From: Ascidiella aspersa
Taxonomy: Eukaryota
Reading direction: 5' to 3'
Length of the DNA: 64,000 nt
Assembly (NCBI GenBank): GCA_963924565.1
Contig: OZ004609.1
Coordinates: forward strand, 5,828,001 to 5,892,000
Made by a program: the position numbers and the translations under genes. Of this stretch, positions 7,101 to 56,228 are shown one piece after another (position 1 is the first letter of the stretch; every line of letters begins with the position of its first letter). The notes below the pieces were generated by a model. The model worked only from the letters and a program-made list of their open reading frames with translations. It had not been told where the DNA came from and ran no database searches.

Positions 7101-10100
7101 GCGCCCCCCCCTCTCTGGCGTCCCTGCACTTTGGACTCTGAATCTAGACATCCGAATTCAAATCTCGGTTGAACCTTAAATATTTTACTTTCAAAACATT
7201 TTTGTGGTAAACAAGGAATTGATATCGAAAACTCAGTAAAAATTGACAATTGATTTACCATCTCACGATTATTACCTTAAAATTTTATTGATTAAACTGT
7301 TGGCTAATGAAGCACACTAGTTAATTTGAGGCCGTGTGTCCGAACTAACTTAAAATGGAAAATGAATAAAAAACATAAAAAAGGAACGGATCAAAGAACG
7401 GATCAACATAATCAGCCAAAGCGGAAAATATAGTTCAAGTTTTAAAATCAGAGTTGTAGATACATGTTTTATTTTATTGAACACGAACAAATTTGTAAAA
7501 GAGTTGACCATATCAGGCAGTGAACAACTAATGTGTAACTATTCCATTTTCTACTAGTTATGTTTTGCACCAATATGCATTTTGGGGAAATACTTGCTAT
7601 AGTAAATATTGTCGTTGCAAAGGTACAGACGTACATATTTATTCGAAACAGTACATTTACACACTTACAATTTCACATTCACACCAATTTTTGCGAGCAA
7701 AGTCGGGTACGGTTGTACAAATTTTCCAACAAACATACCTTTGTTAAACTTTAGTTTATAAGTAACCACGTTTTTTAACTTTTTTTTTATATCAGGTGAG
7801 GGCAAAGCTTTGAAACGCCGGCCAAATATGTGGATCCGGATTAGCACACGAAGCAAAATATGTATATGCGACTTAAACTGTGGGACAACGCATTTGTAAT
7901 TGATCAGATTTCGCGATAATCGAAGTGCAACTAAGACCATTTCTCAGGTGTTGATTAAAGTCCATATTCCAGTGTTGATTATTTCATTGTGATCGGTGAT
8001 TGGATTATGTTTGCCATCGATACCGAAAAGCTCAAACACGTAAACACATAGTATAATATTACAGCCGAAGACCGAATAACGGCAACATGCAGTGGTTCCC
8101 AACCGGGGTGCCGCGGTACTCTAGGGTGTAACGCATCAGGGTGCCGAGCGATGTTTTAAATACTTTGGGATTCAAATTTGTGCTCTATTGATAAGTTTCT
8201 TGATACAGTATTTTGTGTACGATAAAGGTGCAAAAAATAAAGAAGGTTGTTTTAACCTTGTTCAACAGTTAATGTGCTGTTTCAATCTCGTTTATTCTAA
8301 CGTTACAGTTAACCGCTCAGCAAAAATACGAGCAAGGGTGCCGTGAACTATTTATAATTTTTGTAAGATGCCGCAAACCAAAAAAACAAAGATTGCTAAA
8401 CAGTGATGTAAAGGGAAAACGTTGACTTGTGTTTACCCAGGTTCCGCTTTCCCTACCCCGGCCAGTGGGGATTACCCCGGGTCACGGTAGCGGGGTTCGT
8501 CGGGTTGCTGGCGGGGGTCATGGCAGGGATTATCGAGTCGGTGGGAGACTACTACGCATGCGCAAAGCTGTCGGGGGCTCCTAACCCCCCAAGTCACGCC
8601 ATCAATAGGTAAGTGGTTCCCTGCGCAAAGCAATAATAATTACTATACTTTATCTGATTAACCATTACATGAACAAGTAAAACACGAGTTTATGATTAGT
8701 AGCGTATGGTCGATCGCTTATCAATTTATGTATTTTGCAAGCCATTCTTTGTGTTCATTTTTTCGGTGCCCTAAATTGTTTTGTAGCAATATGTGAGTGG
8801 TTTTAGATTACAATTCTATTTATATCGCGATAGCAAAAAACGTTGTAAATATCTGTAAAGTGTACACAAAAAAGTAAAGATGTGGTTATTGTGGTGTGTT
8901 AGTACATTAATGAAAGAGGTTGATTTTTACGACAATATTCAGATCGAATTGTTTCATAATTGTTTTTCATGTTTTTTTTCAACCTATTTCGTATTTTGGG
9001 TCGGACTTAACAAATCTGCTATACGGCACTGTGATGTTAAAAACCGGCGGTGTTTTTTCTATAACCCATATGCACAACAGTTAATTTAACTTAGTAAAAT
9101 CGGCCGAAATTTTTAATGCTTTCTGCAGGTTATTGACTAAAACCATTTCTCCCATATTCATAAACATTGATTCGTTTCTATACATATTGTTAATATAGGG
9201 GCATCTTAACAGAGGGTTTCGGCTGCATATTGGCTGGTGTGATTGGGACTGGCACGGCCACAACCTCGTTTAGTCAGAACATTGGAGCAATTGGAATAAC
9301 TAGAGTCGGAAGTCGAAGGGTAATTCATTAAAATGATCAATGCATTGCCTGTTAAGTAACTAATGTCCGGTAATAGCAATATTGTACGCGGGAGTGCAGT
9401 TTACGTTTGTCCCAATATGTCCCACTGTTTCTCCTCGTGGTTAAAGACAATAACTTTTGTCCTAAAAGACTTTGTTCTAGTTTATATGTTTGTTCTGATT
9501 GGTTGGTTATTAGATTGCTAATATATAAAAACATTATAATAGACCATGGTGCCTTTATCTAGCGCAAAGCTTACATTAATGAAGAGTTTGGATTTAAGTT
9601 AAACATCGCATAAACAGATTTTCGCAAAGGTTTTTTTGAAGACTTGAAACAAGAATGTCAAATGCCTAGTCAAGGCAAGCCGTTATTATTGAACTTCCTT
9701 TCTGACCATCTTGTCATTAAGAACAACTGGCCTATACCTACATGCCAATAAACGTTTCTTTCTCTCGTTATTTAGGTATTACAGGTAGCAGGTTGTCTCT
9801 TCATATTACTCGGGATGCTTTGCAAGTTCGGGAGCATATTCGTTGCGATCCCGGACCCGGTTTTGGGAGGACTCTTCTGCGTTCTCTTCGGTATGATCGC
9901 AGCCGTGGGAATCAGCAACCTCCAGTACGTGGACCTTAACTCGCCCAGGTAATACAAACGTTTTTTTGCAAATTTAATGATTTGCAAATTGTAGTTACTC
10001 TCCATTTTTGAATACAAACAAAATTGGGTGAAATTACGATTTCCAAGTGTTTAATGTTCCAATTATCTCTTCAAACCAGTATAAAATTGAGTTGCACTGA

Positions 10101-14615: not shown

Positions 14616-17600
14616 ATGGACGAAAATCACAAGTGCGGTGCAACTAACGAAGCATTTGAGATAGTAAGTGTCAATTGGCAGATGATTTACGATTTAGTGT
14701 TTAAACTAAGTCAGATGCTGAATGATGTAGGCTACTACTATATTTCTTACCTATTAACTAAAATTCACAAGCGTTGTTTGAATTTCGAGATTAATGAAGT
14801 GAGTGTAATCAATTTACGTACGTCGGCATCTTTGCAGAAAACACCATGGATATTATGTTAAACAATACATTGCAATTCTTATGATTGCCATTCTCTGGCA
14901 ATAAAAGCCTTTGAAATTATTCAAGTATTCCTGACTGTTAAATTGGACCAAGCTTGTGCCTTTTTAATTTTTTTAGCCGGATCTTATTTTTAACCGTCGT
15001 AAGTAAGCAGTAAATTTTTACTGATGACAGTAGTATTTACTTAGAACGAAAAACTGGTGATTATTAAATAATACAATGTCTAATATTACCTCCGTATTGA
15101 ACTTAGCTAATGTCCACTCATGTGTGACTATCGCCCAAAGCAGAGTTATAGTTTTCCGTTGTTCGTCATTCTGTCCATTATTAGCGAATAGGTTAAGTTG
15201 CCTTTTGAGCCGTTGTCTACGCGTTGATATGTACTCGATAACTTGTAATTATGAATAAACGTTCCAACAAAGTCGACTATTAGCTGAGTAAAGCAACACT
15301 GCTCTTTAAGAATGGGTGTAACAAAAATGAATTAGCATATGTATACGAATATATTTTCGGAGATCTGGACAAGTCGCCATCCTCGATTTAACTACCTAGC
15401 TCCGTAGCATCCTAAACCAGTTACTGGTCTCCACACCTATCTTGGCCAAAACAATGTTGCTTTGGATTGAGATTTCCAGTTTATTGGCTTGCTTTAACTT
15501 CAGGATGACCAAGCTACGGCTGAGCAAACAATTAATGTGGAAGGCAAAACAACAGATGGTCTGCTTTATTCTGTGGAAGATACACCTCCGTGGTATGTTT
15601 GCATTGGACTTGGATTACAGGTAGGACTTCCTACTTCTGCGATAATGCTTTATATTTCAGTAAAAAGTGTATAATGTTGATGACGTGAATGTCACTATCT
15701 TTTACCTTAAAACAAGTGTTATTAAACGGGGGTCCATGGACCCCTTGGGGGTACATGAACTAGTTTTACGGGGTCCATGAAGGCCACATTGAACTATTAG
15801 TGTATATTAAAGTAATCGATTTTTCAAAGAAAAGAGTTTAATTAAAAATAGATTATTTTAGCACTGAATTGAGACACCATTTCACTTTCACATTTTTTGA
15901 TCGGAAACACCATAAGTCTTTTTGTAATGCGACATCAATTTGTGACGTCATTTTTAAAGATTCCTTATCCACAGGGTCCGCGGTAAAAAAGTTAAAAAAC
16001 CCTTGCCTTAAAATTATTTTATAATATGTTACTAATGTATTGGGTAAAAAAACAAAAGTGATTCTGGTATTAAGATGCCGGCTCACAGTTGCTTGTTTGT
16101 GTTCATTATCAGCACTACTTGGTAGCAGTTGGGTCTCTGGTGGGACTTCCCCTGTTACTTGCCCCGTCACTCTGCATCGCCGATGACGACAGAGGTGACG
16201 TCACGCGGTCTTACCTTATCAGCAGTATCTTCTTCGTTTCTGGAATTTGCACACTCTTGCAAACCACCATCGGAAACAGGTAACAATCCTTTTATGATTA
16301 AGAGTGTTGGAAAATCTCGCTTCCCAACACATATTATAACAACAATATTTCACTTCATATACATAAATGTTTAACAAACCATAAACTTATATTGATCATG
16401 ATAATAAATTTCAAAGCCAAAAAGGTCGAATAGATCGAAATCTTCTTGACAATTAGGACGTTTCGATACGAGCTTGATCATCTTCAGTTAATGTGACTGA
16501 GAAGCAATTCAAGCATCACTTATAAGAGATGGGACGCAATTGTTATCATTCTGAGCTTCTATAGTCGGAGCATTTTTTTTAATTAACAACTTCAGGTGTT
16601 GAACAGGTACAGCGGTGTTCATAAGGGTTCAACGTTCAGTTCGAGGTCGCAGTCTTGGATAGATGCATAGATCGTATCGATACGTCTTAATTATCAAGAT
16701 GATGTCAATCTACTCGACCTTTTTGGCTTCGAATTTTATCACAAGCTACATTACAGATCCGTGCATAGTGTAGCCAATTATATTGATCACCTCTGCGATA
16801 ACTGCGTCTGCTTTTAAACTAATAAAACAATAGAGATAGGTGCTACATATTTAAACCTCCAGAATTCGTCATAGTTTTTAGGCGATCGTCATTTGTGGTA
16901 GCATTGAATACAATGTAAAGTATCCTTAAAATCGCAACAAATATACAGTTAACAATTGCCCGTATTCTTTTGTTTTTGAAGACTTCCGATCATGCAGGGC
17001 AGTACATTTACCTTTCTTCCTCCAACATTCGCCATCTTAGCGTTACCCCACAACATTTGCCCCCCACCGTTACCCCCTGACTTTAACCCCAACTCTTCTG
17101 AAACCTTGTACAACGACACAGACGGGATGATCGTGAATGGAGATGAGCTTTGGATGCGAAGAATGAGAGAGGTATGGTTATTCTTGCTTTTTCAACTCTG
17201 TGTAAAAGTAAAATAGAAAAGCTCTTTAAACTTGCAGAGCGTTAAGGTTTTCAATGTGCATAACTGTTTTAAGGTCAAAGCTAAGTCGCAATGTACTGAC
17301 TAACCTTCTGTGTTTATTACCCAGTGTTTTAATGGCTTAAGTCAATGACTTAACTTAAGCGCACTTCAGTAACTGTTTTCAAATGACTTGACTTTGACTT
17401 GACAATTCTTTTAGACAATTGACTTTACTTGACTTAAGTCTTTTGGAAAATGACTTGAATTAAATGCTTCATTAAGCATTTTTCACTATAAAAGTGGGTT
17501 ATTTAACCTAAGTTTTGTGCGTCAAAAAAATGCTTGTTACACGTTGTGTTTCGTTTTAGTTTTCAGTTAAGTTACTGCTAATAAATCGGACTATTTTACA

Positions 17601-20600
17601 AATTTTAATAGTTTAACTTTTAATTTTTATGACATCGACTTGACCTGAAATTGACCAATCTATGACAAACCAATACGTTTAAGTTATGCAAGGGCATTTC
17701 GATCGTTATAAAACTGACCAAAATTCAACACTATAAAAGTAACAGACAAGAAATATCACAGGAAAATGCAATTATATAATGTGGAAATAATTTACAAACC
17801 TGACCAGACATATTAAGTGTAATACGGTTCTACATATAGATCTATCACTAACGAATATAAATTGAAATAAAAGTGTTATTATTCTTTATCTTGAAAAGTC
17901 AACTCTCACCCAAGTATGGCGTGAGCTGTTAAATGAAATGGCATAACAGAAATGTCGGCCTTATACTTAAAATTAACAAAGCAAATTTCGTGTAAAGGTC
18001 CAAGGCGCCATTGCGGTCGCTTCTTGTGTCCAACTTCTCCTGGGCCTTACTGGCGCCATTGGGTTGCTGCTTCGGTTCATTGGGCCGCTCACCGTCGCCC
18101 CTGCCATATCTCTTATCGGATTGAGCCTTTTTTCTGCGGCGTATTACCAAGCAGAGGCGCATTGGGGAATCGCAATGTTGTAAGCTCAACATTTGAGACA
18201 TGTGCTATCAACATTAATTTCTGTTAAACTAATATATTTTGTGTTTTTATTAATAAAATTAGTGCTAGTAATTAATATATTATATGTGTTGATGATCTAA
18301 GTGCAGTTGTTTAATTCGTCGTAGAAAATTAACAGATAATTGTACATTTTTTTACCAAGAAGAGAGTCGAACTCACGCCTTTGTTTAAAGGACAATTCAG
18401 TTTTCCTCAATGAATGTTTTTCGCGTATACATGACCATCAACTTTAATCATGGAGCACGCTGTATATTTCATAATATAAGCCTATACGGTGTAAAAACGA
18501 AAAGCAGATAGCACCATGACTTGCATTTTAGAATGCAATATGCGGAAGTTTGTAATGTTGATCTTCTTCTCTTTTCTGTTTGTGTGTAGTACATCATTCG
18601 TGATGATAGTGTGTTCGCAATACCTCAATAACGTCAAAATCCCACTGCCTGCGTACACCAAGAGAAAAAAGTTCCATTTAGCGTGGAAGGCACTTTTCAA
18701 AATGTACCCGGTAAGAACACTCGTCATAAACCTATTCAACTCTTGCGCTTTTAGATCTAAAAATAAACTAGCATAAACTTATGCTCTTGATACTGCCAAA
18801 CAAACCCCAGTAATCCCGGTCACAACTGTAAAAGAAATGTAAGTTTAATATAATGATTTTGATAACTATTTTTGTTTGTAAGGGAACCAAGGTGATTAAT
18901 TTATGGTCTGCCCGCTAACGTTTTTGCAACGAGTCATTTTAGTTAGGAAGCTTTGTAAAAGTTAAAGTTTCCTATAAATGCGCTTTTTTTAACGTGTCGG
19001 GAATAATTTAAAGAAAGTGTTGCGGTATAGAAAGAATGTAGTTATCTAGTTTAGAACAATTGTCAGTTAAACAACGAATTGATATGACAACCAGTAGATT
19101 TCTTCAATGAAAGATATGTACACACATATGTGTGTTAACAACTGAAATCTACCCCTTCTGAAGCTACTTTTTGACCAACGATTACGGTTTTGACCAACGA
19201 TTATCATTGGTACACTGAAAGTCATTGCAGACTCACCGAATCTGTCGATCAATGATCTAGAAAAACAACTAGCCTGCAGTGAGGTTCGATCTCACGACCT
19301 CCGGTCAAGCCGGGACCGTCGCTCCACCAACTGAGCTATGCAGGCTATTATATGATATGGTACTGTGAAATCCCCTTAAATATGAAGTTGCTTGTACTAA
19401 CAGATTAAGCAAGCATTGGCGTATGGTAGTTTCTCGACTCGCTCCTCTTTGAGCTTGTGTAGCTCAGTTGGTAGAGCGACGGTACCGGCTTGACCAGAGG
19501 TCGTGAGTTCCAAACCTCACTGCAGGCTAGTTAATTGTTTTTCTAGCCTGCTCTGCTTGCATCATTAATCGACAGATTCGGTGAGTCTGCAATGGCTTTC
19601 AGTGTGACAACCAGTAGATTCATAAATTTATTTGATAAATGAAAATGCCAAACCCACCCAATATGGATTACTGAGGTTTAACAAAAAATGGTATCTATAG
19701 GTTTTATTTGCCCTTGTTTCCGCCTGGCTGCTGTGTCTGATTTTTACCGTCACCGACGTTTTTCCAACGGACCCTAACAACCCAAACCACAGGGCTAGAA
19801 CCGATCTCCGGTCAAACGTGATCTCCAACGCACCTTGGTAAGGACAAAACTCATCTATAAACAAAACTTGACACATAACTTTACCTAAATTACGCTTTCA
19901 AGTCATGGGCTCAAGCTAGCAAGCGTTTTCCAATAGTGTAACTAAAAACGTGGAAAATGGGTATAGATATGTTTGAGGCCTCTTATCTAAAATTTTCTAG
20001 TTTCTTGTTCTTTTCTTTTAATTAGGCCTGCAAAATATCTGCCCAGTTTAGTGCGGCATTTTAACACATGGTGTTACGAAGTTAAATCTAATAAAGCACG
20101 GTCGTTATATTTTATTAATATAAGAGTAATTAACTGGTCTTTAGTATTATTAAGGCAGGTTCCCGCCACATCTATAGTAGAGAACGAATATTAGATGGAA
20201 TGGCATATTAGGAAAATTTTATCCAAATAGTTGCACCGCAAATAAAACTTCGAGAAAAAAAGCGAATCAGTAATATTGCGATATTTATCAATTTTATTTC
20301 CAAAAAAATGGTGTACACTTGTGTATAGCAAAGTTCGCTGGATTTGTGTTTAATTTTGGCATAATCAATGGCTGGTGTTATTTAGTTCAAGCAGTTCTTA
20401 CCAGAAAACAAACTAGGGATGCAGCTAAATACTGATTTCATTTTATTTAAATTGGGGTCGACTAATAAAAAAAGACCACTTAAGATACCTGTGGAAAACT
20501 CAAAGCGCAGACGGTAACCTCACATCATGTGATCATAACTAAAGTTTGATCTTTACTTATCTTCATTGTAGTATAGGCCTATGAGCAATGCAAAGACCTT

Positions 20601-23600
20601 CATTGCAGGTGAAATACACAAGGGACACGTTACATTAGCAATTTACCCATCAGGTTCCGCTTTCCTTACCCTGGTCAGTGGGGAATCCCCCGGGTCACGG
20701 TAGCTGGGTTCGTCGGGATGCTGGCGGGGGTCATGGCAGGAATGATCGAGTCGGTGGGAGACTACTACGCATGCGCAAAGCTGTCGGGGGCTCCGAACCT
20801 CCCGAGTCATGCCATTAATAGGTGAGTGGTTTCCTGCGCAAAGCAGTAATAATTACCATTTTATCCGATTTACGATTACGTAAGTATAACAAAATCGATT
20901 TTATGATTAGTAGCTTCGTATGGCGAATCGCAGATCAATTTATGTATTTTGCAAGCCATTCTTTGTGGCCATTTTCGGTGAGCTGAATTGCTGTGTAGAT
21001 GCCTTCTACCTTGGTGATAGACCAGCTTGGTATTAGATTGTTGAGACTCAGTGGTGTAAGCTTGTAAATATTATTGTATGATTTAATCTTACCAAAGCTA
21101 GCAGTTCAGGCCAAGGACTATTAAAATATCTTGAAAGATATATATATATATATATATTTCGCCAGAAAAGGCGAAGTATGTAGCTTATATCTATATTCGA
21201 ATTAATACTAGATACTTTTTTGAATTGCTAGCTTTGTTAGAGTATTCTGCTGTTACTGAGCAGGAATTAAAGTCGACATTTATCTTGCAAGGGTCAAGGT
21301 GACTTCTGTTATCACATATTTAGCGCTACAGTTATCAGTGATATTGTTTCCTGTTGTATTACATTTTTAAAAGAATTGCAGTCTCTTTTAACAGCGGTTT
21401 GAAGAAGTCATTTCAAAATGACTATATCCCAGTCAAGTCATTCTTAAAATAACATAAGCCGAAGTCAAGCATTTTCGAATAAATAAAACGTCAAGTCCCC
21501 GTCCAAGTCATCGGTTGCCCAAGTCAAGTCATATTTAGAGAAAGTTAACTTCAAGGCACGTACTTGTCATAAAAATAAAACTTCAAACTATTAAAACTGG
21601 TAAACTCATCCGATTGTGAGCAATAACTCAAGTAAACAATAACATAAACACAACATATAAATATGATCTCATTTCTATGCATTGTGCTACTTTAGGGGGA
21701 TTCTAACAGAGGGTTTCGGCTGCATTTTGGCTGGCGTGATTGGGACTGGTACGGCGACCACCTCATTCAGTGAAAACATCGGAGCCATTGGAATAACGCG
21801 GGTCGGAAGCCGAAGGGTAATACAGATGCATTTATAAATGATGTTGGGCTTTATCGATATACGAACCTGTGTTCGTCAATATTAACGTCTAACGAAACAT
21901 GGTTTAAAAGCAAACGGCATCAATCCTTTGCAATATACGTAAGCCTGTCGTAGTGATGTTTTAGGCTTCTCGTCACACGATCTTGCTGGGTTATCTTTTT
22001 TAGCAACTTGTTAAAACTTAAAAATCTTCACTTAACGCCAGTTATAGTTTTCTTTTTTCCTCGTTTAGGTATTACAGGTAGCCGGTTGTCACTTTATTTT
22101 GCTCGGGATGTTTTGTAAGTTTGCAATCCTTGGTATTTTGGTAATCTTACTAGCATGTACAAATATCCATTATATGCCAGCCAACCCAACCTTCTGTCAC
22201 GTTTAGGTTTTACAGGTAGCAGGTTGTCTCTTCATATTACTCGGGATGCTTTGCAAGTTCGGGAGCATATTCGTTGCGATCCCGGACCCGGTTTTGGGAG
22301 GACTCTTCTGCGTTCTCTTCGGTATGATCGCAGCCGTGGGAATCAGCAATCTTCAGTACGTGGACCTTAACTCGCCCAGGTAATACAAAACTACCTTGTT
22401 ATAGCAATTTTTGTTGAAAAGAAAATAACACGTTATTAGCTCACGCAACCACGTCATTCAACACTAGTTGCGTGTGCCTTTCTTCTTAATACTAGGAATT
22501 CATAACGGATAATGTAAAATTTAGAAAATGCATAGCCTATAAAGTCAAGACTGAGAAACTGAGAAAGTCAAACTTTTTTTCACAGTCAGGGGGCAGCCGA
22601 CTAGATAAATTAATAGTCTTTCGCCGCCCCCTGGAAACTACGGCTTTTTTTTCGTTGAAATTTTTTGCATGTATAAACCGTTTTCCCGAAATAAAAAAAA
22701 ATTATCTATCTATTTTGTGTATAACGGCTGACGATTGTAGTTATACGTAGAATAAATATCAAAGCCCATACAGAAATAGATGTATATTTTAAACGTTTCG
22801 AATTCATTGTACGTTTAACTTTCCATAAAATCATGTGTTTGATATCGTTTAATTTAGCATGTGTATCTACGGGTTCTTCACTTCTATTCCGAGCAGAAAC
22901 CTGGTGATTGTTGGTTTCTCGATGTTTATGGGCCTGACTGTACCTGAGTGGATGAAGGCAAACCCAGGTGTTATTCAGACCGGATCTACCGAAGGAGATC
23001 AAATCATCACCGTTCTTCTTGAAACCTCAATGCTAGTCGGCGGAATGCTGGCCCTCATACTTGACAACACTATTCCAGGTTGGGTGACGTATGATGCAGT
23101 ATACAGGCATTTTTAGAAAATCAGTCTATTTATTTCAAGATAAATGTTGTGGTTGTTTGTTTGGGTAACACACAAACAAATGGTACGTAACAAAAATCTT
23201 TTATTTTGACAGTATTTTGATGAACACATTTTTCACAATACTGGAGTCGTACTTTTGTGCAATCGTTTATTAAATGCATCGTATTTGCTTTTAATAAAAA
23301 GCAAGCATTCCATTTTGCGTACATTGTTTGAAATTTTAAAAGGAAGAACACCGGTTTAACGGTTATGCAGTTAAGCGCCGAAAATAGGTTGAAAGACTTG
23401 TAGGAACGTAACCAACTTTTACAAATTTAATTAAAGAACATATTTATTGGGTCCAGCTCTTTAAGAAACAGATTCAATCCCTGCTTGATTTTTTCAAGGA
23501 ACTGAAAGCGAACGCGGAATCGTAAAATGGCGTAAATCGCAAAGCGGAACTGAAATTGACGACGAAGAAGTGTTGGCGGAAAAAGTCGCCGCGTGCTACG

Positions 23601-24211
23601 ATCTTCCCTTTCCAACAAATTGCTGCAGGTTTGTCAGACTATTTATTGTTTTAAAATATTGCAACAATGCACCCTATCTCAGACTCACAAAGTTTAAATT
23701 TGCTTATCGTTTTAAAGCGCGCTGTAAATTAGTCTTAATTCCAAAGCTTACAGAAAACGTCCGAGATAATTAGATGTGTTGCTAAAATTTATTCGGCGTA
23801 CAATGACTGCAGTCGACCAAGAAATCAAAACTTAAAGGGATGTTTCAAAATGTTGTCATTTGATGAATATGTAATAAGTATATAAACAATACATAACAAG
23901 ATAGTCAAAAAAATTTAAATTACACAAAGAATTGTATGTAAACATGGTGCCAAACAAAATAAAAAATTCCAACGCATACAAATAGTTTTTGGTCTTTTGC
24001 AGTACTTCAAAAACTTCCTGAAAATAAAATATATGAAACTTTCTTATAACAACTTAATGCATCCAACATAAGCAAAATAGCATTTTTTTCTGCAGTAAAA
24101 TCCAAACCATATTTTTGTGACAGACTATCGAAGTACGTCCCGTTTTTACCCGAATACGGCAGAAAAAGCATAACATCATCACCAGACCAAGCATATTCTA
24201 CAGAGCTTTAG
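14616..24211 (+). CDS. SLC23/NAT (NCS2) transporter, tandem copy 2 (E-type NAT motif), 13 exons, 607 aa
   Basis: Exons 14616-14663, 15504-15620, 16113-16279, 16982-17171, 17998-18179, 18590-18710, 19701-19837, 20654-20821, 21696-21816, 22207-22379, 22897-23078, 23499-23628, 24124-24211 (1824 nt). Exon phases match copy 1; NAT motif [18 protein letters not shown]. Confidence 0.93.
16400..16765. mobile_element. Second Penelope-like foldback element with a degenerate hammerhead motif (16452-16492, minus strand)
   Basis: Inverted arms at about 16402-16470 and 16672-16740; minus strand reads CTGAAGA-TGATCAAGCTCGTATC-GAAA-CG-TC. A related copy lies at about 33216-33331. Confidence 0.6.
19101..19604. 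mobile_element. Inverted dimer of a tRNA-like repeat
   Basis: tRNA-like units at 19272-19345 (-) and 19453-19527 (+) with A/B boxes and inverted tails; 16-bp flanking duplication TGACAACCAGTAGATT at 19085 and 19605. Confidence 0.75.
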
Positions 24212-26752: not shown

Positions 26753-28454
26753 CTAGCGATAGAATATCAGAAACGTTGACTCGATTAGGTATTTGTCAAC
26801 GCTGTAGGTTGTGTGGCTTCCATATCCGCTGTAGGACCAACCAGCGAAATCACCGCACATGTTGGCGTGGACGTTGTAGCCAGTCGAGCCAAGGCAGCTG
26901 AACTCGGCATGGTTGTCGACCCCGTTCGCAACTTTGTGTCCTGGACATAAGGCGTACGCCCTGTCTTCAACTGTAATAGCTCGAAACTGAGGAAAAGGAA
27001 AAATTTGTTAATCAACGAAGCAGATTTTAAAAGTAGACTGGTATAAAAAAATACAAAAACGGATAAAATCAACCATGGTAGTACCCGATCAATGATCAGG
27101 ATCAGTATTTTTGTTTTATGGGGCCTGAAAAATTTTCGTAATGATGTATCAAAACTACAGTTTCAGCCTTATCTCACAAAGCGCAAAAAATGTGCGTTTA
27201 GTTGGTTTGATTGGCAAACCTTCAGTTTAAAAACGTACGCTATGCATTCGGCATATAAATATTATTTGCATATTTCTTTAAATAACAGCATTTATTTTTT
27301 TATAATTTAACCACAAAAGTTGCACTTTGTAAAGTTTGTGTTTGCTCCGCGTAACATACTGCAGTATGTTTGGCGTCTTTGGGAACAATATATTGTCTTT
27401 AAACAGACAAAAATGGATAAAGTTTCGCTTGTACATACGTCAAAATTACCTGCATATAACCCGGGGTCATCTTTGACTTTGTGCTAGGCCCGAAGTGCGC
27501 AACATAATTCGAGGCGGTGCCTTCGTCGAATATTATTGGAACAGAAGGCCCGTTTGACTGTTTTTGCCCAGAAACTATGGGGAAATGGTGCTTAAACAGG
27601 TTATAGAGGTTGCCTTGGTAAGTTTGCAGAAATTCGGAATCGGTGCGATAGCGCAGGTAGGCGCTTTTTCGCCAATTCGGAAAGGGCGTCTCGTTGGGAA
27701 CTTGCCATATCATCACGTCTTTGGCGTTGATACTGAAGTACCCGGGGTTCTTGTAATCATCAGCAGTTGCCGATATCACGTTGCCGAACGTGTTTTCGTT
27801 TTCCCAGTTCGGGCTACGGAGCTGATTACCTGAGTTTCCCTGGTCGCTTGACCATCGATCACCGGGCGAGCACCGACCGTTATTATGCGCGTTATTTTCA
27901 TGTACCGAGGCCACCAACGACCAGCTACCCCCGTTGGTCAACATGTCGCAGTAAGTCTGGTATTGGAAGCCGTTCGAATCAGCCAGAGTGTAGATGCCAC
28001 TGGGGAGCACTGAGCCTGCGGCTTCGCGTAACGCTTTGCACGATTCGTTCCGAGCTACAAACACAGAGGACGGAATCAAAATGTTAAACTATAAAGTAGC
28101 GCTAAATACTATTGTAGGTTTAGCAAAATGTTACATAACAATGCAAATATACCATATCTTGATAGCACAAAGTCGTTTAATATATTTTTCAGTCAATTCG
28201 ACATGTGTTGATTCGCAAAAGGTTAAATGTGGACCGCGGTACAACAATTAAAAAATCACCATGAAATAACATTGTTAAGCGTAAGGTACGATGGATGTCA
28301 TGTGTGCACATGCTACAAAATCAATTTGAATAGTTGCTGCTAAAACTTTTATTACAGAAAACCTAATGTAGAACTATACCTTACCTTGAGTAGCTCCTTG
28401 AATGCAACATATTTTTACTATCACTAGCAGGACAATTGCTCCCACTTTGTTCAT
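26753..28454 (-). CDS. ITLN: Intelectin (fibrinogen-like X-type lectin), secreted, 3 exons, 302 aa
   Basis: Exons 28454-28385 (signal peptide MNKVGAIVLLVIVKICCIQGA), 28054-27450 (YCDMLTNGGSWSLVASVHENN...GDRWSS...DDYKNPGY) and 26986-26753 (FRAI...CGDFAG...GYG...FLIFYR*), 909 nt in frame. All are intelectin signature segments. Confidence 0.93.
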
Positions 28455-28518: not shown

Positions 28519-29504
28519 CTGGGTATGATCACGCAACAACAAGTCCAGTTGTGAAACGTTGGATTGTTTTGCGGCCAGGTTCCACGTACTTTTGTCACGT
28601 TCGCCTTCCAGAAATACTTCAGATGTGAACATTCCGAACAAAGTTAATTTGTCTTTTTTCATTACGTCGGTAAATATTAAAACCACATACGCGTTAACAC
28701 AACACAACATAATGTAGAGCATTGTCTAAGCTTTATTATCTTGAGACAATGTTTACATGAATTGTGTGGATAAAAGTTTTCCTTTCTATAGCACTTGAAA
28801 TTCGAACGTGCCACGAAGATATTATTCCTGCTCGTTATTTGCCATATTCCGCGTGAAGAAAATTTGTCATATTAATGTTTGATCCCTGATGCCACGAGTA
28901 AACCTAGCAGAATGTCTACACAACCCGAAAGTCAATTTAACTTTACCGTAAGTGCCTGAATTAAAAGCGTGTCAATATGCCTTTTGTTTTTATCGAATAA
29001 TATATTGAAAAAATTTGCCACTTAGGTTAAGATTCTGTGGTAGTCCCGAGGTATTGCAAATATTTAGTCCCAGTCAAAATGTGTTGATCTACTTATTGTT
29101 TTTTGTGGAGCGCTGACTGTAGGGTGTGATGTCTACGGCAGCGCTAAAAAAAATAAGTGCTCAAAGCAATCTTGAATATCGCTTTCAACGACCGGATTTG
29201 TAAACGTCTGGACCAGGCAGTGACTCTGTCGCTTTTGCCAAACCCGTCAGATCATAATATAAAGTGATTCCGCGCGATTCCAAACAAAACTAGCATATTT
29301 AAGTTACCAAGGCACGAAGCAAAAACATTTTAAACGATGTTGGTGTTCTTTAGTTTGGAGAACACTATAGGAGATTGCGTCTGCACACGTCTTGGCAAAC
29401 CTGATATCTGGATTCCATGCTATTAGGAGGGGCACAAACGTACCATGGGTAATCCTATGATGCAACAGACTTATCATGAAATTCGTTCCCACTACCCTTG
29501 GTTA

Positions 29505-29642
29505 TGTAGGAGCCAGAGCAGTGCACAAGTCAGCTTGTATTTTCGAATGACCGAGCGAATGACCGCTTGGCACTAGCACGATAGAATAGGCGTGTCGCGT
29601 GTAGCATGTCGCGTAACGCACATAATAAACGGATACGCTACA
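29505..29642 (-). repeat. 3' LTR of the Gypsy element
   Basis: 138-bp direct repeat of 31121-31258, 3 mismatches. Confidence 0.93.
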
Positions 29643-31120
29643 AAGTCCCGTTCGGTAACGAGCAGGCACAGTAATAACGCGACCACGTCGAGTTAACCTC
29701 GGTCGAATGGGAACAGAGGGTTGCGGTGGTATACAAGGAATATCGGGACGTTGCGGTAAACATTGGGTAAAAGTGGGGCGAGTATTTTCCATGTTTATTA
29801 AATCAGTGTAAGTCGGTTTAAGTCGGTCAATCGAGACAGTATCTACAAGGCCATTAGCATTAATTTTTAAAAATTTACTGTTCTTTCTATAACGTTAAAC
29901 GGGCCGTCGTAAGGACACTGTAAGGGCGATCTATGACAGCCACGACGCACGAAAACAAATTTACACGATTGGAGTATACGCGGTACACTACTATGCGATT
30001 GTCTGTATCGTGATGTCGCAATGGCGCGAACGTTCTCCATTGATTTCCGGAAGTTGGACAGGAATGTTGTTACCTCCGCTGGGGTTGTAGAGGTGCCGTG
30101 TGACGGTGGTGAGAAAAACTCCCCTGGTAACCGCAGTGTCGTGCCGCACACCAGCTCCGCGGCAGGACAACCAATGTCTTCCTTCGGGGCCGTGCGAATG
30201 CCGAGCATGACTGCAGGAAGTTGATCCACCCTTGTGGCAGGAACAACACTGATCGCAGCACCGAAGTCCACGAGGTACCTTTGTCCATTGGTGCGGTCAT
30301 TAACGTGGAGAAGGCGGCGAGAACAACCAGCGGCACTAGCCGCCATTAGTGGCTGGTTGAGGCGTTTTCCTTGTACTCGCAGGGAGAAACGCACTTTTGT
30401 GCTTTAGGGCCAAATCACCTGTGGTACCAGCACAGTTGTTGAGCGTCGCGCAGGTTTCTTGTTTGCGGCGTATTGCGCTTCAGAATTGCAATTTCTTTTT
30501 GCAGTTGATTGACTTGAGCCAAAATGGGTGACGTGTCTACAGGTCAATCATGTTGTCGGCTTTCAGCGCCAAAGCTGATACTTCCAGATCAAGTGTTGCC
30601 AACACCACTCGCAAATTACCTGGTAATCGTTGAAGAAAAAGTTCGCGAAGCAAATTTTTCGAATCTTCTTCGCCCATAAGATGTTGCATTTCTCGCAACA
30701 TGTCTGATGGCTTGCGATCGCCCAGGTCTTCATGTCGAAGAGGTTTCTGTAAGCGTTGATGCTTGGTCATCGAAACCCTGCTGATGAGTGCGTATTTTAA
30801 CTGCGCGTAAGGATTCGCGTCATCTGGGTTTTTTATAAAGTCCCGCAGAACGGCGGCGATTTCGGGTGACACTGCTGCTACCACATTGTGGTACTTTGTT
30901 CTCGATAGTGTCACGCCTTTCACAGTGAATTGTGCTTCCACTTGTTAAAACCATAGTTCGGCGTCTTGTGGTCATAATGGCGGAATTTTAACAGCAACGG
31001 CTGCGACATTTTCTTCGTCCATCATAGAATTAGGTTTGAAGTGCGTTGAACATAAGCTAGCCTACAGCCTAGCAATGTGTTTTTAACCTTGCACTTACTT
31101 TGCTTGCCGGGTTCATCATT

Positions 31121-31258
31121 TGTAGGAGCCAGAGCAGTGCACACGTCAGCTTGTATTTTCGAATGACCGAGCGAATGACCGCTCGGCACTAGCACGATAG
31201 AATAGGCGTGTCGCGTGTAGCATGTCGCGTAACGCACATAATAAAAGGATACGCTACA
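31121..31258 (-). repeat. 5' LTR of the Gypsy element
   Basis: 138-bp direct repeat of 29505-29642, followed by the TSD GTTA. Confidence 0.93.
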
Positions 31259-34768: not shown

Positions 34769-35094
34769 TGACTATCGAATTGTGATTTTTTAGATTGTTA
34801 AAAATAATAAAATACTCGACAGATAAAACTGCCTGGTGACATTAAATTTATCCGGCCAGTCTGGTACAACTATGTATTGGTCAGTAAGTACAGGTAAACA
34901 TAAATTTCCTGGAATTGTTACCTGTATAATTTTTAATTTCTGTTCCATGCACAGTCATACTATACAAATTTTTGCTTCACATAATTGCTTGTATCTTGAA
35001 ATAATTTATATCGATAGATAGATTTTTCTAATATCGTTTTTTAAATTTATTATTAGGCACAACAGTTATTTTTAACACGCGCGTTTGAACCGAA

Positions 35095-35802: not shown

Positions 35803-36825
35803 ATGCGGGACAAACTAAAGACATATATCGAAATCAGAAACACAAGGGTCTTTTGTTCAATGTTATTTACGTTATTCCCTCTATTTTTGGGTGTCGTTGC
35901 AATCAATTGTGAGCTCACCGTTATAAATATTTCCAACACATGACTTTAATTGGACTTAAGTCTTTGAGGCAATCCACTTGACTTAGACTTTTATGTTTTT
36001 AAATAATCTTTGGTTAAATTTGGTTGGTGTTTTTCCCAATATCTGCTTGTCAAACACTTTGCTCGATTAATATATCGTTTTTAGGATTTTCTAACTTGAC
36101 TTTCGTGAAAATATAATGATTCATACTGGAACGTGACTTGAAGTATGCAATTTCAGACTGGAAACGTGACAAAGAAGTAAAATAGTTTCGGACTGGAACG
36201 TGACAAGAAGTAATCAATTTATTAAAGAAAATAATTTAATTAAAAATAAAACGGCTTTGCACTGAACGTTTTTTGACTCCATTTCACTTTCACATTTTTA
36301 GACCAAAATCAGCAAATTTATAAAGTCTATTTTTACTGTGACGTCAATTTATGACGTCATTTTTGATTTTTTGCCTACACTGATTTTCGCGAGGTAAAAT
36401 AAAGTTTTAGGAGTCCGCCGTAAAAAAGGTTTAAGTCCCCCTGATCTATTTTGTTAAAAGCAGGACAAATAAGTACACGTAGTTGTTGGGCGCGTTGTAC
36501 GTGTTAAAAAGACCGATAGGGAGGTTCAAATGTACTTCCTAAGCCTAAATGATAATTTTTACCTAATCGCCCCTATCGTTGAACATTTTGTTTCTTTGAG
36601 CATTTTGTTTGAGGCCTTTGTTGTGAAGGGTAGCTTTTTCTATAAAACAAACAACCCTTTATATCGGGTTGTTGCACTGGACTGAACGTTTTCTTATAAG
36701 GAGCATATTCGAAAGAAGAATACAAATGCGAGGTCACACCATGCCCTACAGAACAAGCTCGCTAACCGAAATAGGGTGATAATGCAGAATAACTGCTTTA
36801 GCACTGTGCTACTCAACAAAATCTC

Positions 36826-49943: not shown

Positions 49944-52900
49944 CTATAACTTCGTAGATTTGTCGTATTCTGGTGTTGGCACGTTCTTCCGTCCGTATTC
50001 GGGTAAAAACGGAATGTACTTTGAAAGTATAGCATATATGCTGAAACAAAATGGCGTTGAATGTATCTTTTTATGAATAATAAAATAAACAGTATTTAGA
50101 GCAGGGGTTCTCAGATAGGGCTCTGTGTAACCCTTGAAGTGGATAAAGTTTAAAGTGGTGTATATAACATCTTTTAGTGTGTTTTTTCATTGTTATAATA
50201 TATAGGTTGGAGAACACGCTCCTTAAAGCAAAATAAAAGGTCCGCATGGTAAACTAGGTTCGAGAAAATAGACTATTGGTATCAAAGCTTTCATGATTTC
50301 TTAAAATTTGTGACCTTCCTGCTCTAGTTTCGCAAAAATACGCCACGGAATGACACATACAAAAAGGTCAGTAAAATTAACTTTTTGAACCGGATTTGGC
50401 CCGCGGGTCATAGACACCCAATATTTCCAACAACTAAAAACGAAGTATAACGCAACTCCAAAATTTGTTAGACTATCAAATAATTAGCATAAGAGTGTGA
50501 CAAACCTGCAGCAATTTGTGGGAAAAGGAAGATCGTAGCAAGCGGCGACTTTTTCCGCCAACGCTTGCTTATTGTCAATCTTGGTTCCACTTTACGATTT
50601 GCGGTATTTCACAATTCCACGTTCGCATTCTGTTCTTTTCATACAAGCACATGTTTTAATTTGCTTTGAATTTACTTTATTGAACACATTTGGTTGGGAT
50701 CTAGGAGTATGTTTTCGCCTAAATCTACTTTGTATACCTTTACAGGATATCAATTTGCCGTTATTGGTATTCATGCGTTTAAATGCGACCACCAAAAAAC
50801 GTGAATTGCACCCTTTTGAATAATGTTAGCTATCTTGCTTTACACAAACAAGGGTTTCCCTATTTTTACAACAGTTAGGTTTTGGAGTTTTTGAATTTAA
50901 ATTTTGCACAGTTCAAGACCAATCTAAAAAATATTAGCATTCCTTCTTATTAATCAATGCTTATGTCCGGTTGTGCTTTGATTTTAATATGAGTGATAAA
51001 ATAGGGAAGTACAATCAAGTGATGAACGTAATTTGTTTTGTTTTCATTTTATTATCTGGATTTGCATTTAATGTAAATTCCCTATGAAGAAGTTGGTACG
51101 ACATTTGTTAGCCAAAATTCATACAACGAAATAGACAAAGTTTTAAGAACACAAGTTTTTGCTATAATTGACGTTAAGTCCTTGAAATACCGATTGGTTA
51201 ATTTACTTAGGCCCAATGAATTTCTCTATTTCCAATTGGTAACATGAACTTTTAGCATATTGTATTACATTATCATTGTCTTTTGCATTGACTGTTTAGG
51301 CTTGCTTGTATTTCTTAACATTTCAAAGATTTGTGTTTTTTTTATAATTGTTGTTGCGCCTCGATTTTACGGTTAGTCGATTGCCAGTTTTCGCAACACT
51401 GAGTGTGATACGCTTACAAACGTGTTCGCCTTAAGTTTCCTACTCTGAAGTAAAGCACCCAGCAAGTCTGAAAGCACAACAGTTATCTAGCGTTTACAGT
51501 TATTTTTCAACGAAATGTATGTTTGTCTTTCAAGCAGGCATGGTGTTATCTAACACGCAGGCCAGCATTCCACCCGATTGAGGTTTCAAGAAGCACGGTG
51601 ATTATTTGATCTCCTTCTATGGATCCGGTCTGAATCACTCCCGGGTTTGCTTTAATCCACCCAGGAACAGTCAGGCCCATAAATATTGAGAAACCTACAA
51701 TTGCAACTTTTCTCATACTAACCTGTCAACGGCATGACTCGGGGGGTTCGGAGTCCCCGACAGCTTTGCGCATGCGTACCACTCGCCTACCGACCCAAGC
51801 ATGTCTGCCACAACAGCCGCCAGCATTCCAACGAACCCCGCTACCGTGGCCCTGTGTATTGCCCACTGGCCGGAGTAGGGGAAGCGAAACCTGGGTAAAT
51901 TGCAAAGCAGAGTAATACGTTCCTATCACAGAGGATGTCTTCTGAAATGCTTGACAAAAGCAGTCATTCTGATCAGGATTATAGGGCAATGAAGTCAAGG
52001 CAAAAATCAACTAGCCTGCAGTGAGGTTCGAACTTACGACCTCTGGTCATAACGGGACCGTTGCCCTACCAACTGTGCAACGAGGTATGCAAACAAACAC
52101 ACTATTCTGGAGTGATTAACTATAACAAATCTTGGGCCATACAAAAGTACTATTTTATTCCAAAGAAAATAGTCACCATCGTTAAAAAACGATTCGAAAT
52201 TCGATGTTTCGCTTAGATAGGTGATTATATTTTTATAGGGTTGCAGTTATACCGTAATTTTACAAGTCAATGTGCTCCATTTACAAAAGGGCTTTAGTTC
52301 TTTCCACTTACCAAGGTGCGATGAAGATCACGTTTGATCGCAGATCGGTTCTAGCCCTGTGATATGGGTTGGTTGGGTCCGTTGGAAAAACATCGGTGAC
52401 AGTAAAAATCAAACACAGCAGCCAGGCGGAGGCGAGGGCAAACAAAACCTGGAAATACAATAACTATTAATAGTATCGTTTAAAAATCAATGTTGGCATT
52501 TTAACTATGAAATTACAGTAGGGCCTAATTACAGTTGGACCTAGTTTTGTAGTTTTTAGGGGAAAATTGCAGTAGGGTTTAAGCTTTTTTTTGGTACTTT
52601 TAACGGGCATATGGGAAAATTTATTTGGCGATTCTTGCCAAAGATCAGAAGTTCACTTTATGCTGTTCCATTCAAGATTGCGAATCAGACATTTAAATTA
52701 TTATTGTACGTCATTTAAACGTCCAACCAAGCTCCGTTAGAGATTTCTATAGTCTTGTATTTTGTAATCATACCGGTTACGTTCTGAAAATCGCCTTCTT
52801 TGCGAAGTGGAACTTTTTCCTCTTGGTGTGTGCCGGAAGCGGTACTTTTACGTTGTTGAGGTATTGCGAACACAGTATCATCACGAATGACGCGTACTGC

Positions 52901-55067
52901 ACAAAGAGAAACATATTATAATGTTTAACGCCACAAACTAATACTTTAAACGAGTAGTTTTCAATATTTCTATAGGACGTGATTTACATAACGCCGAAAC
53001 AATTTCAAAAACAAATTACATCATGATTTAAATGATTGCCTTGAAGAATATTACAACTGAAGCGTACATATACACAATGTGTACTATAACCTCCGTCAAG
53101 ACCTTGTGGAGTCGCACTGGACGACGATACCGGCACTCATTATATAGTACACAAGATGCTTCAAAAAAGTTTAGCGTTGTTTTTCAAGCCTGGTTTTGCT
53201 TGTGCCATATTCATGATCAGGCTGAGGAATTTTGGTAAGCCTTCGTAAAGGCCTCTTGTGTATGAAAAAAACTAGGTGGCTTTAAAGGTAATGTTCGGCA
53301 ACACAATACCAAACGTACATTCCAGACTGGCTGTCAATAAACTCGTTGACTTTTTCATCTTTCATCTAAATAACAACCTGAAAAACACCTCGAAATTTAC
53401 TTACAACATTGCAATGCCCCAATGCGCCTTCGCCTGTTGATAGGCAGTAAAAAAGAGGCTCAATCCGACAAGTGTAATGGCAGGACCGATCGTGAGGGGC
53501 CCAATGTACCTGAGAAGGAATCCGACCGCGCCGGTCATACCGCAAAGAAGTTGAACGCAAGCCGCCACGGCAATGGCACCTTGGAACTTAAGAGAATTAG
53601 TTGATCTCAAATGTTAGATCAGGGTTATGGAACTATGCTTAGTACTAGAGATGTTAGAGCCATATCCGATGATAAGTGGTAGTATTGGCACGTGTCGGAT
53701 ATACTATGTTGGCATCGGTGCCGATCCGATATTGAAATTGTTATAAGTATTTCAGCCTTGATTTGCGATCCAACGCAAAAAAATTATCGTGAAAGGGTAA
53801 TTTATTAAAACATAGCAGGTAAAGAACATTGGGTTACCCAACACTAAATCTTATATCGGTGTGATGATCTCGAAAATTGATCTTTGAATGCTTCAATTTC
53901 GTCTGGTTTGAGCATATAATGGCGCGATTTGTTATCGGACCAGATCGCAATACTTTTTCTTTAACATACCGGGTTTTGGTATCGAAATAAAAAGTCAGGT
54001 ATCGGACATCCCTACCTAGTACTGCAGTCTGCATTAAATGCGCAACTTAACTACTGCGGGCCATCTCAGTTAGCCCAGGTCACAAATATGACAAGCGTCG
54101 AATGTGTGCAAATCCGTTGGGAATTAAAGTAGTCGTATAAATTGTGACCAATTTTTGAGACAGGGGAACATTAAACACAGTTTTGGTGACTGTGGCTTGA
54201 CTTATCGTAACCTTAACTAATTTAGGCAAATAAAGGTATTTATTAATTTGAAAAAAAGTGTGTTGGCAACTTGTTTTGTTTTTTAACGGTTGCGATTTGA
54301 TAGAATGCTGAGTGTTGTTTAATTTGACAAATTCCATTTTTATGCTAATGAAATGACTTGAACTTGATATGCCATGGCAATGATTTCGACTGGGGGTTGA
54401 TTTATATCAGTAAAGATTTGCATTGAGACTTTAAATATTTTAAATGACTTGTTTACAACACTGATTTTAACATAAGTGTTTGGGTTATGTAGCTGCGGTA
54501 CAACAACACTACGACGTTTGATATAAAACCTGTCATGTTATACAAGTTTACAACGTACACTTTATAGAAGTCATTCCCGAACTGTGTGCCCCGACACTGT
54601 TTGTAACTTTGTAAATTATGTTATTTGTAGGCATACGACATTATTACACAATATTCTTTACATATTAGTAATATTAAGTCATTTACATATAGTTCGTCAA
54701 AAATACTTAATTGAATTCAAATTATTTGAAAAAAGTGACTTAAGTGCACTTGTCAAGACTTGTCATTTCAAACCTTTTATTCATAGAAGGTTACAGTAAC
54801 TACATCATTGCACAAACGTAACGCGTGCTACTGTATTTTACTTTTACATAGAGTTGAAAAACCAAGAGTGACCATACCTCTCTCATCCTGCGCATCCAAA
54901 GCTCGTCTCCATTCACGATCGTCCCGTCCGTGTCGTTGTACAATGTTTCCGAAGAGTTGGGGTTAAAGGTCGAGGGGTAACGGCGGGGGGCAAATGTTGT
55001 GGGGCAACACGAGGATTGCAAATGCTGGTGAAAGAAAGGTGAACGTGCTGCCTTGCTGATTGGAAGT
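49944..55067 (-). pseudogene. SLC23/NAT copy 3, inverted pseudogene
   Basis: Remnants of exons 4 (about 54878-55067, frameshifts), 5 (about 53405-53586), 6, 7 (about 52312-52448), 8 (degenerate), 11, 12 and 13 (stop at 49944-49946, acceptor AG mutated). Exons 9-10 are deleted; exons 1-3 were not found. Confidence 0.88.
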
Positions 55068-56140: not shown

Positions 56141-56228
56141 TGCAACTGTTTATAACGGCGCATCAAATCAAGGCAAACTCATTCTAGAAAAATTGGCAAA
56201 TTAAATTTCATCGAAAACTTTGCGAAAC

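What the first reader, a model, noticed from the sequence alone, without database searches (positions are those of the whole stretch)
9199..21816. Tandem SLC23 paralogs differ at exactly the NAT specificity residue (Q vs E) in an exon that escaped homogenisation
Seen: exon 9 differs between the copies at 18 of 121 nt, yet the only amino-acid change is SFS-Q-NIG (CAG, 9275-9277) versus SFS-E-NIG (GAA, 21772-21774). The TM3 site also differs (QGSSFSF vs QGSTFTF). Established: the first residue of the NAT motif [Q/E/P]NxGxxxxT tracks substrate: Q in the xanthine/urate carriers UapA and XanQ, E in UraA and rodent SNBT1, and P in the ascorbate carriers SVCT1/2. Inference: neither gene is a vitamin C transporter. 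The duplicates probably split purine versus uracil/broad nucleobase preference, and a Q-type animal SLC23 is unusual.
Basis: partly seen in the sequence, partly recalled or inferred. Interest (0 to 1): 0.7.

Follow-up and report, generated by a model that had tools for sequence, protein, structure and literature searches.

The report
Sea-squirt nucleobase transporter twins, Q versus E
Two neighbouring, 89% identical transporter genes of what is likely a sea squirt differ at the residue that grips the substrate, which likely narrows one copy towards xanthine and urate, but the same swap is common among animal members of this family, so the pair is a handy test case rather than a surprise.

Summary
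Two intact 13-exon SLC23 genes lie in tandem; exon 9 differs at 18 of 121 nt with Q/E as the only residue change, and the TM3 site differs. Q is derived in copy A: A sits inside an otherwise all-E ascidian clade (100/99) and is rejected as kin of the Ciona/Clavelina Q paralogs (AU p 5e-10). A second haplotype also reads CAG. Neither copy has the SSSP motif of vitamin C carriers.

Three claims fail or weaken. Q-type animal SLC23s are not unusual: 50 of 120 top hits, 19 of 150 cluster representatives, and the published fish/amphibian Slc23a5. Exon 9 is no clear outlier: exon 10 is converted, but exon 6 is more diverged and the Q codon ranks only in the top 8-18%. A purine-versus-uracil split does not fit: E-type rat SNBT1 carries uracil, guanine and urate.

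Best reading (0.5): both are Na+-coupled nucleobase carriers of the SVCT4/SLC23A4 group, B broad, A narrowed to xanthine/urate-like bases. Untested. A is the only Q copy found in this genome. Value: a close natural pair for testing the Q/E rule in animals.

The parts
1191..13582 (+). SLC23 copy A, 13 coding exons (1191-1238 inferred first exon; 2468-2590, 3851-4017, 4504-4693, 5613-5794, 5946-6066, 6524-6660, 8441-8608, 9199-9319, 9776-9948, 10561-10742, 12175-12304, 13495-13582), Q-type
   Evidence: open frame over AG/GT-bounded exons; first exon from ATG and donor match to copy B; exon 9 passes Pfam PF00860 cut-off
14616..24211 (+). SLC23 copy B, 13 coding exons (14616-14663 inferred first exon; 15504-15620, 16113-16279, 16982-17171, 17998-18179, 18590-18710, 19701-19837, 20654-20821, 21696-21816, 22207-22379, 22897-23078, 23499-23628, 24124-24211), E-type
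   Evidence: 89.2% identical to A over 592 aa
9199..9319 (+). exon 9 of A with the NAT signature; Gln codon CAG at 9275-9277
   Evidence: aligned to UapA TTFAQNNG and SVCT1 SSSPNIG
21696..21816 (+). exon 9 of B with the NAT signature; Glu codon GAA at 21772-21774
4526..4534 (+). TM3 site of A: Ser (4526-4528, derived; Thr in B, C, D and 7 of 7 clade relatives) and Ser (4532-4534, ancestral)
17004..17012 (+). TM3 site of B: Thr (ancestral) and Thr (17010-17012, derived, shared with copy C)
9776..9948 (+). exon 10 of A, 98.3% identical to exon 10 of B (22207-22379), with a 140-nt identical run: likely gene-conversion tract
   Evidence: 0 of 5000 shuffles reach 140
8441..8608 (+). exon 8 of A with the TM8 motif ESVGD (substrate Glu and Na+ Asp), same in B (20654-20821)
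   Evidence: SVCT1 E341/D345 as Na1 ligands in PMC10011568 passages
49944..55067 (-). copy C: inverted pseudogene; exons 4-8 and 11-13 only, exons 9-10 deleted, indels in exons 4 and 11, stop in exon 6, TM8 motif lost
   Evidence: no match for exons 2, 3, 9, 10 in 49-58 kb

Best explanation
Two intact tandem SLC23 genes, likely sodium-coupled nucleobase carriers of the SVCT4/SLC23A4 group, differ at the NAT-motif binding residue because copy A changed Glu to Gln after the duplication, which is predicted to narrow A towards xanthine and urate while B likely stays a broad carrier. Shown: the gene structures, the motifs, the direction of change (E to Q on A's own branch), purifying selection on the pair (dN/dS 0.11), patchy gene conversion. 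From established work: in UapA the Gln amide pairs with N1-H and C2=O of xanthine, and Glu at that place lets hypoxanthine, guanine and uracil bind. Inferred: B carries uracil, guanine, hypoxanthine, xanthine and, weakly, urate like rat SNBT1; A loses guanine and hypoxanthine, which lack C2=O, and the lost negative charge would ease entry of the urate anion; the ranges overlap. A role in the urate deposits known from tunicates is speculation.
For: A nests in an 11-row ascidian clade (100/99) whose other 10 rows are E, sister to B (100/100), then D; AU test rejects grouping A with the Ciona/Clavelina Q rows, p 4.6e-10. The column is E or Q in 59 of 62 tree rows (labels) and is the only change in exon 9 despite 17 synonymous differences. 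dN 0.047, dS 0.42. QH in TM1, ESVGD in TM8 and T-S-F-S-[QE]-N in TM10 are kept in both. Q408 contacts and Q408E phenotype: PMC4837479 and PMC4162363 (passages). Q recurs in six separate places of the 62-row tree and in bovid models, mostly beside an E paralog, as expected of a useful alternative state. Four genome searches found no other Q copy. Contig X1:3 (9046-9607) has 3 differences, all listed and outside the codon.
Against: No transport data; one search found only the Slc23a5 preprint, which itself calls for functional work. In UapA, binding-site changes alone do not change what is transported; gate residues decide (PMC4162363 passages). E- and P-type carriers move urate too (PMC5974720, PMC10011331 abstracts). 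E to Q is one base change, and A differs from B at 36 other positions between residues 39 and 569, so one hit at a binding site may be tolerated drift. No significant divergence peak at the codon. The TM3 Ser does not track Q family-wide: 4 of 9 Q against 29 of 50 E, p 0.49.
Confidence: 0.5

Rival explanations
1. The copies are kept for dose or for expression in different tissues and carry much the same substrates; E to Q is a tolerated, nearly neutral swap.
For: Q is 19 of 150 cluster representatives and other residues (G 18, P 14) occur, so the site is not rigid. UapA Q408E keeps a nearly normal Km for xanthine and urate (PMC4837479). No divergence peak. Conversion has spread over exons 7 and 10, which fits selection for sameness.
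Against: The site is E in all 10 other rows of A's clade and in 106 of 108 new, mostly arthropod hits. Q408E cuts UapA activity to 5-10% (PMC4837479), so the swap is not silent there. Whole clades keep Q (7 of 7 fish and amphibian rows).
Confidence: 0.3
2. One reading: A is a purine (xanthine/urate) carrier and B a uracil carrier.
For: The three-group rule is in print (10.1101/287870 passages); UraA has E and UapA has Q.
Against: The only animal E-type described as characterised in the papers read, rat SNBT1, carries guanine and urate as well as uracil (PMC5974720, PMC5972032); plant NATs carry xanthine/urate or adenine-guanine-hypoxanthine-uracil (PMC5972032 text; that they have E is recalled).
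Confidence: 0.08
3. Copy A is a weakened or decaying duplicate, on the road that copy C took.
For: A third copy in the window is a pseudogene; A's end branch is longer than B's (0.079 against 0.056); A has Leu at a column with Met in 48 of 62 rows.
Against: Open frame and canonical splice sites in all 12 exons modelled; dN/dS 0.11 at dS 0.42; B has its own odd change (Leu where 59 of 62 rows have Pro).
Confidence: 0.06
4. One or both copies move ascorbate.
For: PMC9233358 argues from silkworm needs that protostome SVCTs without SSSP must also carry vitamin C (passage); UapA recognises ascorbate with extremely low affinity (PMC5972032 abstract).
Against: Both keep the aromatic residue and Q/E that PMC5972032 ties to nucleobases; SSSP is absent; the SVCT1/2 clade is described as vertebrate-only (PMC5972032).
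Confidence: 0.04
5. The Gln codon is an assembly error or a rare allele.
For: Only one other haplotype could be read at the codon; for runs X2 and X5 most rows were hidden (595 not shown).
Against: Contig X1:3 differs from the window at three other places yet keeps CAG; no row at 9275-9277 appears although a fixed X2/X5 difference at 9214 does.
Confidence: 0.02

Closest known systems
Rat SNBT1 / SLC23A4 ('extended SVCT4 group' of PMC5972032)
   Same: Over 45% identity to the group (A 51.8%, B 52.5% to a mole-rat member P0093); S-[FY]-S-E-N motif in B; lineage-specific expansion as noted for Ciona (8 paralogs, PMC5972032).
   Different: Phe instead of Tyr at motif position 2; Gln in A; belongs to an ascidian-only expansion, not one-to-one orthologous; no assay.
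Slc23a5 of fish and amphibians (10.1101/287870)
   Same: Animal SLC23 with Gln at the motif, predicted to prefer urate or xanthine on the same argument, untested in that paper.
   Different: Separate origin: the fish/amphibian Q rows form their own clade (100) apart from the ascidian rows; that these rows are Slc23a5 is inferred from taxa and motif. They have Thr at the TM3 site. Slc23a5 is old and about 50% identical to its E paralog group; A and B are 89% identical.
Aspergillus UapA and its Q408E mutant
   Same: TFAQNNG aligns with SFSQNIG; the E variant aligns with B.
   Different: H+ symporter of the microbial branch, distant (E 3e-12 to P0007); Q408E changes binding, not transport, unless gate residues change.
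Ciona, Clavelina and Styela Q-type paralogs (P0020, P0026, P0051, P0050, P0053)
   Same: Ascidian SLC23s with Gln and the TM3 Ser, beside E paralogs in the same species.
   Different: About 59% identical to A (P0020, P0050) and rejected as one clade with it (Styela row not in the test); no counterpart found in this genome.
SVCT1/SVCT2 (SLC23A1/2)
   Same: Closest solved structures (E 1e-175 to P0007); Na1 ligands Glu, Asp and Ser kept.
   Different: SSSP motif absent.
Primate red/green opsin pair (divergence peak under gene conversion, PMC3924837)
   Same: Tandem duplicates with conversion and a functional difference in one exon.
   Different: There the flanking introns are homogenised and the peak stands out; here introns mostly do not align and the Q exon is not the highest peak.

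Membership tests
NAT/NCS2 (SLC23) canonical | Pfam PF00860 match | tested here: met
   exon 9 of A scores 37.9 bits, cut-off 27; exons of A and B pass in the genome scan
NAT/NCS2 (SLC23) canonical | TM1 Gln-His, TM8 Glu-x-x-Gly-Asp, TM10 [QEP]-N-x-G-x4-T-[RKG] (PMC5972032) | tested here: met
   GLQH, ESVGD and [QE]NIGAIGITR in both translations
NAT/NCS2 (SLC23) canonical | 7+7 inverted-repeat fold, dimer, elevator transport | not tested
   no model was built; inferred from the full-length alignment of the close relative P0007 to SVCT1
Extended SVCT4/SLC23A4 nucleobase group | over 45% identity to members and aromatic plus Q/E motif | tested here: met
   52-54% to vertebrate members; SFSQ/SFSE
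Extended SVCT4/SLC23A4 nucleobase group | Na+-dependent nucleobase uptake | not testable with these tools
   Na1 ligand residues are kept, no assay
SVCT1/2 ascorbate carriers | SSSP motif in TM10 | tested here: not met
Slc23a5 | Gln at the motif | tested here: met
   copy A only
Slc23a5 | orthology to the fish/amphibian clade | tested here: not met
   A lies in a 21-row ascidian clade (100/100), apart from the salmon and caecilian Q rows
Ciona/Clavelina Q-type paralogs | one clade with A | tested here: not met
   AU p 4.6e-10
Selected site kept against gene conversion (opsin type) | conversion between the copies | tested here: met
   140-nt identical run, 0 of 5000 shuffles; read as conversion by inference
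Selected site kept against gene conversion (opsin type) | a divergence peak centred on the functional site | tested here: inconclusive
   local hump, top 8-18% of codons; higher peak in exon 6

The most novel reading that the evidence does not exclude
This lineage lacks the older ascidian Q-type paralog and re-made one: copy A took the same Gln and TM3 Ser from an E/Thr parent, and selection has kept exon 9 from being converted back. The A/B pair would then be a near-isogenic natural experiment showing that one residue switches an animal SLC23 to xanthine/urate, and a candidate loader of tunicate urate deposits.
Probability: 0.25. Interest if true: 0.55.

Novelty: new member of a known kind. 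Interest (0 to 1): 0.3.

Why it matters
The Q/E rule rests on fungal and bacterial carriers and has been carried over to animals by analogy; in the library searched, no assay of a Q-type animal SLC23 turned up. A pair that is 89% identical and differs at that residue is a cleaner test than Slc23a4 against Slc23a5. If the switch works, the repeated E-to-Q changes in ascidians, fish, insects, crustaceans, a bryozoan and cattle would be repeated gains of an oxypurine carrier, and could bear on how tunicates fill their urate deposits (PMC6320678 calls these unexplained). If it does not, the rule should not be used to annotate animal SLC23s.

Tried and rejected
1. Coupling of the TM3 Ser with Gln. 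It looked strong in the 62-row set (9 of 10 invertebrate Q rows against 4 of 40 E rows) and holds for 6 of 6 ascidian Q rows, but fails in the unbiased cluster sample: of 150 representatives, 59 had both sites readable with Q or E followed by N; Ser in 4 of 9 Q and 29 of 50 E, p 0.49. Rejected as a family rule.
2. Exon 9 as a divergence peak: not significant.
3. Expression: the index listed no RNA holder; one RNA run of the same species label, about 6 in 100 read, put reads on repeats and left the bins holding most exons, exon 9 of both genes among them, at depth 0. One sample, no evidence either way.
4. Reading the codon in runs X2, X5 and in the second organism (X3) base by base: not obtained; it stays open.
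5. Copy C as a witness for exon 9: it lacks the exon.
6. The careful 62-row tree did not finish; the quick tree is cited for the wide picture. Rows D, E and G there are projections of tblastn pieces (G has 109 unknown positions). Fused bovid models and insect TFGE rows were left out of the tree.
7. Papers on XanQ Asn93 (PMC3476789, PMC3234782) were not held; a search for XanQ Q324E found none. That the TM3 residue equals UapA Ser154 is my reading from the UraA and SVCT1 alignments and recall, not a structural alignment.
8. Earlier findings of the scan: none.
9. The supplement of PMC5972032 (tree with motifs) was listed, not read; it may already show Q-type ascidian rows. Supplements of the Slc23a5 preprint were not seen.
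Full report
What is there. A self-comparison of the window shows three related gene copies. Residue numbers below count from exon 2. The proteins are 89.2% identical. Copy C (49944-55067, - strand) is a pseudogene: indels in exons 4 and 11, a stop in exon 6, a changed TM8 motif, and exons 9-10 deleted. The nearest named relatives are from Phallusia, Ciona and Clavelina, so the animal is likely an ascidian.

The observation. Exon 9 differs at 18 of 121 nt, 17 synonymous and one non-synonymous; the codons are CAG and GAA. The residue aligns with UapA Gln408 and the Pro of SVCT1. The TM3 difference is real: the first Ser is derived in A, the second Thr is derived in B and C. For the codon itself, contig X1:3 spans 9046-9607 with 3 other letters, and the table lists three X1 differences, at 9345, 9365 and 9377, so a different haplotype keeps CAG. 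X1 may come from the assembled individual, and for X2 and X5 595 rows were hidden, so population frequency is open.

Direction and origin. Searching the genome with exon 9 gave 6 motif exons: A with Q and five with E. Searches with a full E-type protein, a Ciona Q-type protein and the Pfam model found the same seven loci, counting C; these searches score only the best candidates, so absence is likely, not proven. In a careful tree of 26 rows, with the two trait columns asked to be dropped, A is sister to B (100/100), then to a third copy D on the same contig (100/99), inside an 11-row clade (100/99) whose other 10 rows are Thr/Glu; holding A with the four Ciona and Clavelina Q rows is rejected (p-AU 4.6e-10). 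So E to Q happened on A's own branch. dN/dS between the copies is 0.11 at dS 0.42: both are under purifying selection.

Is a Q-type animal SLC23 unusual? No. Of the 120 best hits to the Phallusia protein, 63 have E, 50 Q, 4 fused bovid models both, 3 other; this list is rich in fish. Of 108 new hits to a mayfly Q protein, mostly arthropods, 2 have Q and 106 E. Of 150 representatives of 50% clusters, 65 have E, 19 Q, 18 G, 14 P and 34 other or unread. In the quick 62-row tree Q falls in six places: A; Ciona plus Clavelina; Styela; fish and amphibians; mantis shrimp, damselfly and mayflies; Bugula. Bovid models carry an internal duplication with E first and Q second. The preprint 10.1101/287870 (passages read) describes the fish and amphibian Q gene as Slc23a5, predicts urate or xanthine from the same rule, and states that functional work is lacking. 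A search for Slc23a5 with 'transport' found only that preprint; searches for ascidian SLC23 work found nothing relevant in their listings.

Did exon 9 escape homogenisation? Conversion is real: synonymous difference per site runs from 0.07 (exon 10) and 0.17 (exon 7) to 0.53 (exon 9) and 0.60 (exon 6), chi-square p 2e-4 over 11 exons, and exon 10 holds 140 identical bases, against a maximum of 107 in 5000 codon shuffles. An allele at 8505 in exon 8 of A, seen in X1, X2 and X5, equals B's base. Exon 9 is a hump between two valleys and is nearly as far from B as from D (0.53 against 0.59 and 0.64), which fits selection against conversion as reviewed in PMC3924837 (passages). But most exons are not homogenised, only 4 of 11 intron pairs show any match and two of these sit at repeats seen, exon 9 does not differ from exons 3-6 (p 0.17), and 8-18% of codons sit in windows at least as diverged, the top peak being exon 6. 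The pattern is allowed, not shown.

How it likely works. Both copies keep Gln-His in TM1, ESVGD in TM8 and the TM10 motif, the three marks of canonical NATs in PMC5972032 (first three of seven parts read). The Glu, Asp and Ser that hold Na1 in mouse SVCT1 (PMC10011568 passages) are kept, so Na+ coupling is inferred. The aromatic residue and Q/E, rather than SSSP, point to nucleobases (PMC5972032; PMC9233358 passages). In UapA, Gln408 contacts N1-H and C2=O of xanthine; Q408E keeps a nearly normal Km for xanthine and urate, falls to 5-10% activity and binds hypoxanthine (Ki 71 uM) without moving it (PMC4837479 passages); it also binds guanine and uracil, and transport of new bases needs gate changes (PMC4162363 passages); cryo-EM places xanthine differently in Q408E (10.1101/2024.08.23.609436 passages). 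Rat SNBT1 has Glu397 (PMC3405029 passages) and carries uracil and guanine, and urate with Km 433 uM (PMC5974720 abstract and introduction). SVCT1, with Pro, also carries urate (PMC10011331 abstract). Read together: Glu means broad, Gln means a demand for the C2 carbonyl. I therefore infer B broad and A narrowed to xanthine and urate, perhaps still taking uracil, with overlapping ranges. Many tunicates store uric acid (PMC6320678 passages), which gives a possible use, unsupported by any expression data here.

Against my reading. The TM3 Ser looked coupled to Gln (9 of 10 invertebrate Q rows against 4 of 40 E rows), but the cluster sample removes this (4 of 9 against 29 of 50, p 0.49). A and B differ at 37 positions between residues 39 and 569, so one at the binding site may be drift. 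UapA shows that this residue alone need not change transport.

Verdict. A real, derived, probably fixed E-to-Q change in one of two functional tandem SLC23A4-like genes; a new member of a known and recurrent kind. The functional split is plausible (0.5) and untested. Its worth lies in the closeness of the pair, which makes the Q/E rule testable in an animal carrier. Interest 0.3.

Noticed in passing
proteins P0046-P0049 (Bubalus, Bos javanicus): Gene models with an internal duplication: the first motif copy has Glu, the second, in the part that runs to the C-terminus, has Gln. Cattle Slc23a4 may be a second tandem E/Q case or a Q-type mammalian carrier.
   Followed up: partly
window 49944-55067 (-): Inverted pseudogene copy C whose deletion removes exactly the motif exon 9 and exon 10.
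   Followed up: yes
window 20799-20801 (+): Copy B has Leu where 59 of 62 aligned rows have Pro, after TM8; may be a polymorphism or affect B.
   Followed up: no
window 8505: Allele in X1, X2 and X5 equals the base of copy B: possible ongoing conversion.
   Followed up: partly
window 45593-48757 (+), partial copy at 36783-37720 and 42525-43065: Single open frame of 1054 codons with a weak DUF294 nucleotidyltransferase match (E 5e-6) and TPR repeats; the partial copy is 88-90% identical and is interrupted by a reverse-transcriptase relic.
   Followed up: partly
window 38820-41442 (+): Fragmented LINE-like element; RVT_1 match at 40315-40584.
   Followed up: no
window 29500-31260: Retrotransposon relic with a DUF7041 match and a 138-bp direct repeat at 29505 and 31121.
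   Followed up: no
window 41700-42169: Tandem array of about five 94-bp units, 98-99% alike.
   Followed up: no
window 27399-28088 (-) and 35089-35802 (+): Open frames of 229 and 237 aa with no Pfam match at E 0.01; by eye intelectin-like and acetyltransferase-like (recalled, untested).
   Followed up: partly
window 56200-64000 (-): Exons of a major-facilitator carrier, sialin/SLC17-like by eye (recalled); weak MFS_1 match only.
   Followed up: no
G000:C1:40819-40821 kb and 40890-40899 kb: Two near-identical SLC23 loci 71 kb apart, one found only from the middle exons on, with a different intron position in the motif exon.
   Followed up: no
proteins P0104, P0067 and cluster representatives: Other residues at the motif site: Asn (Styela), Gly (18 of 150 representatives).
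   Followed up: no
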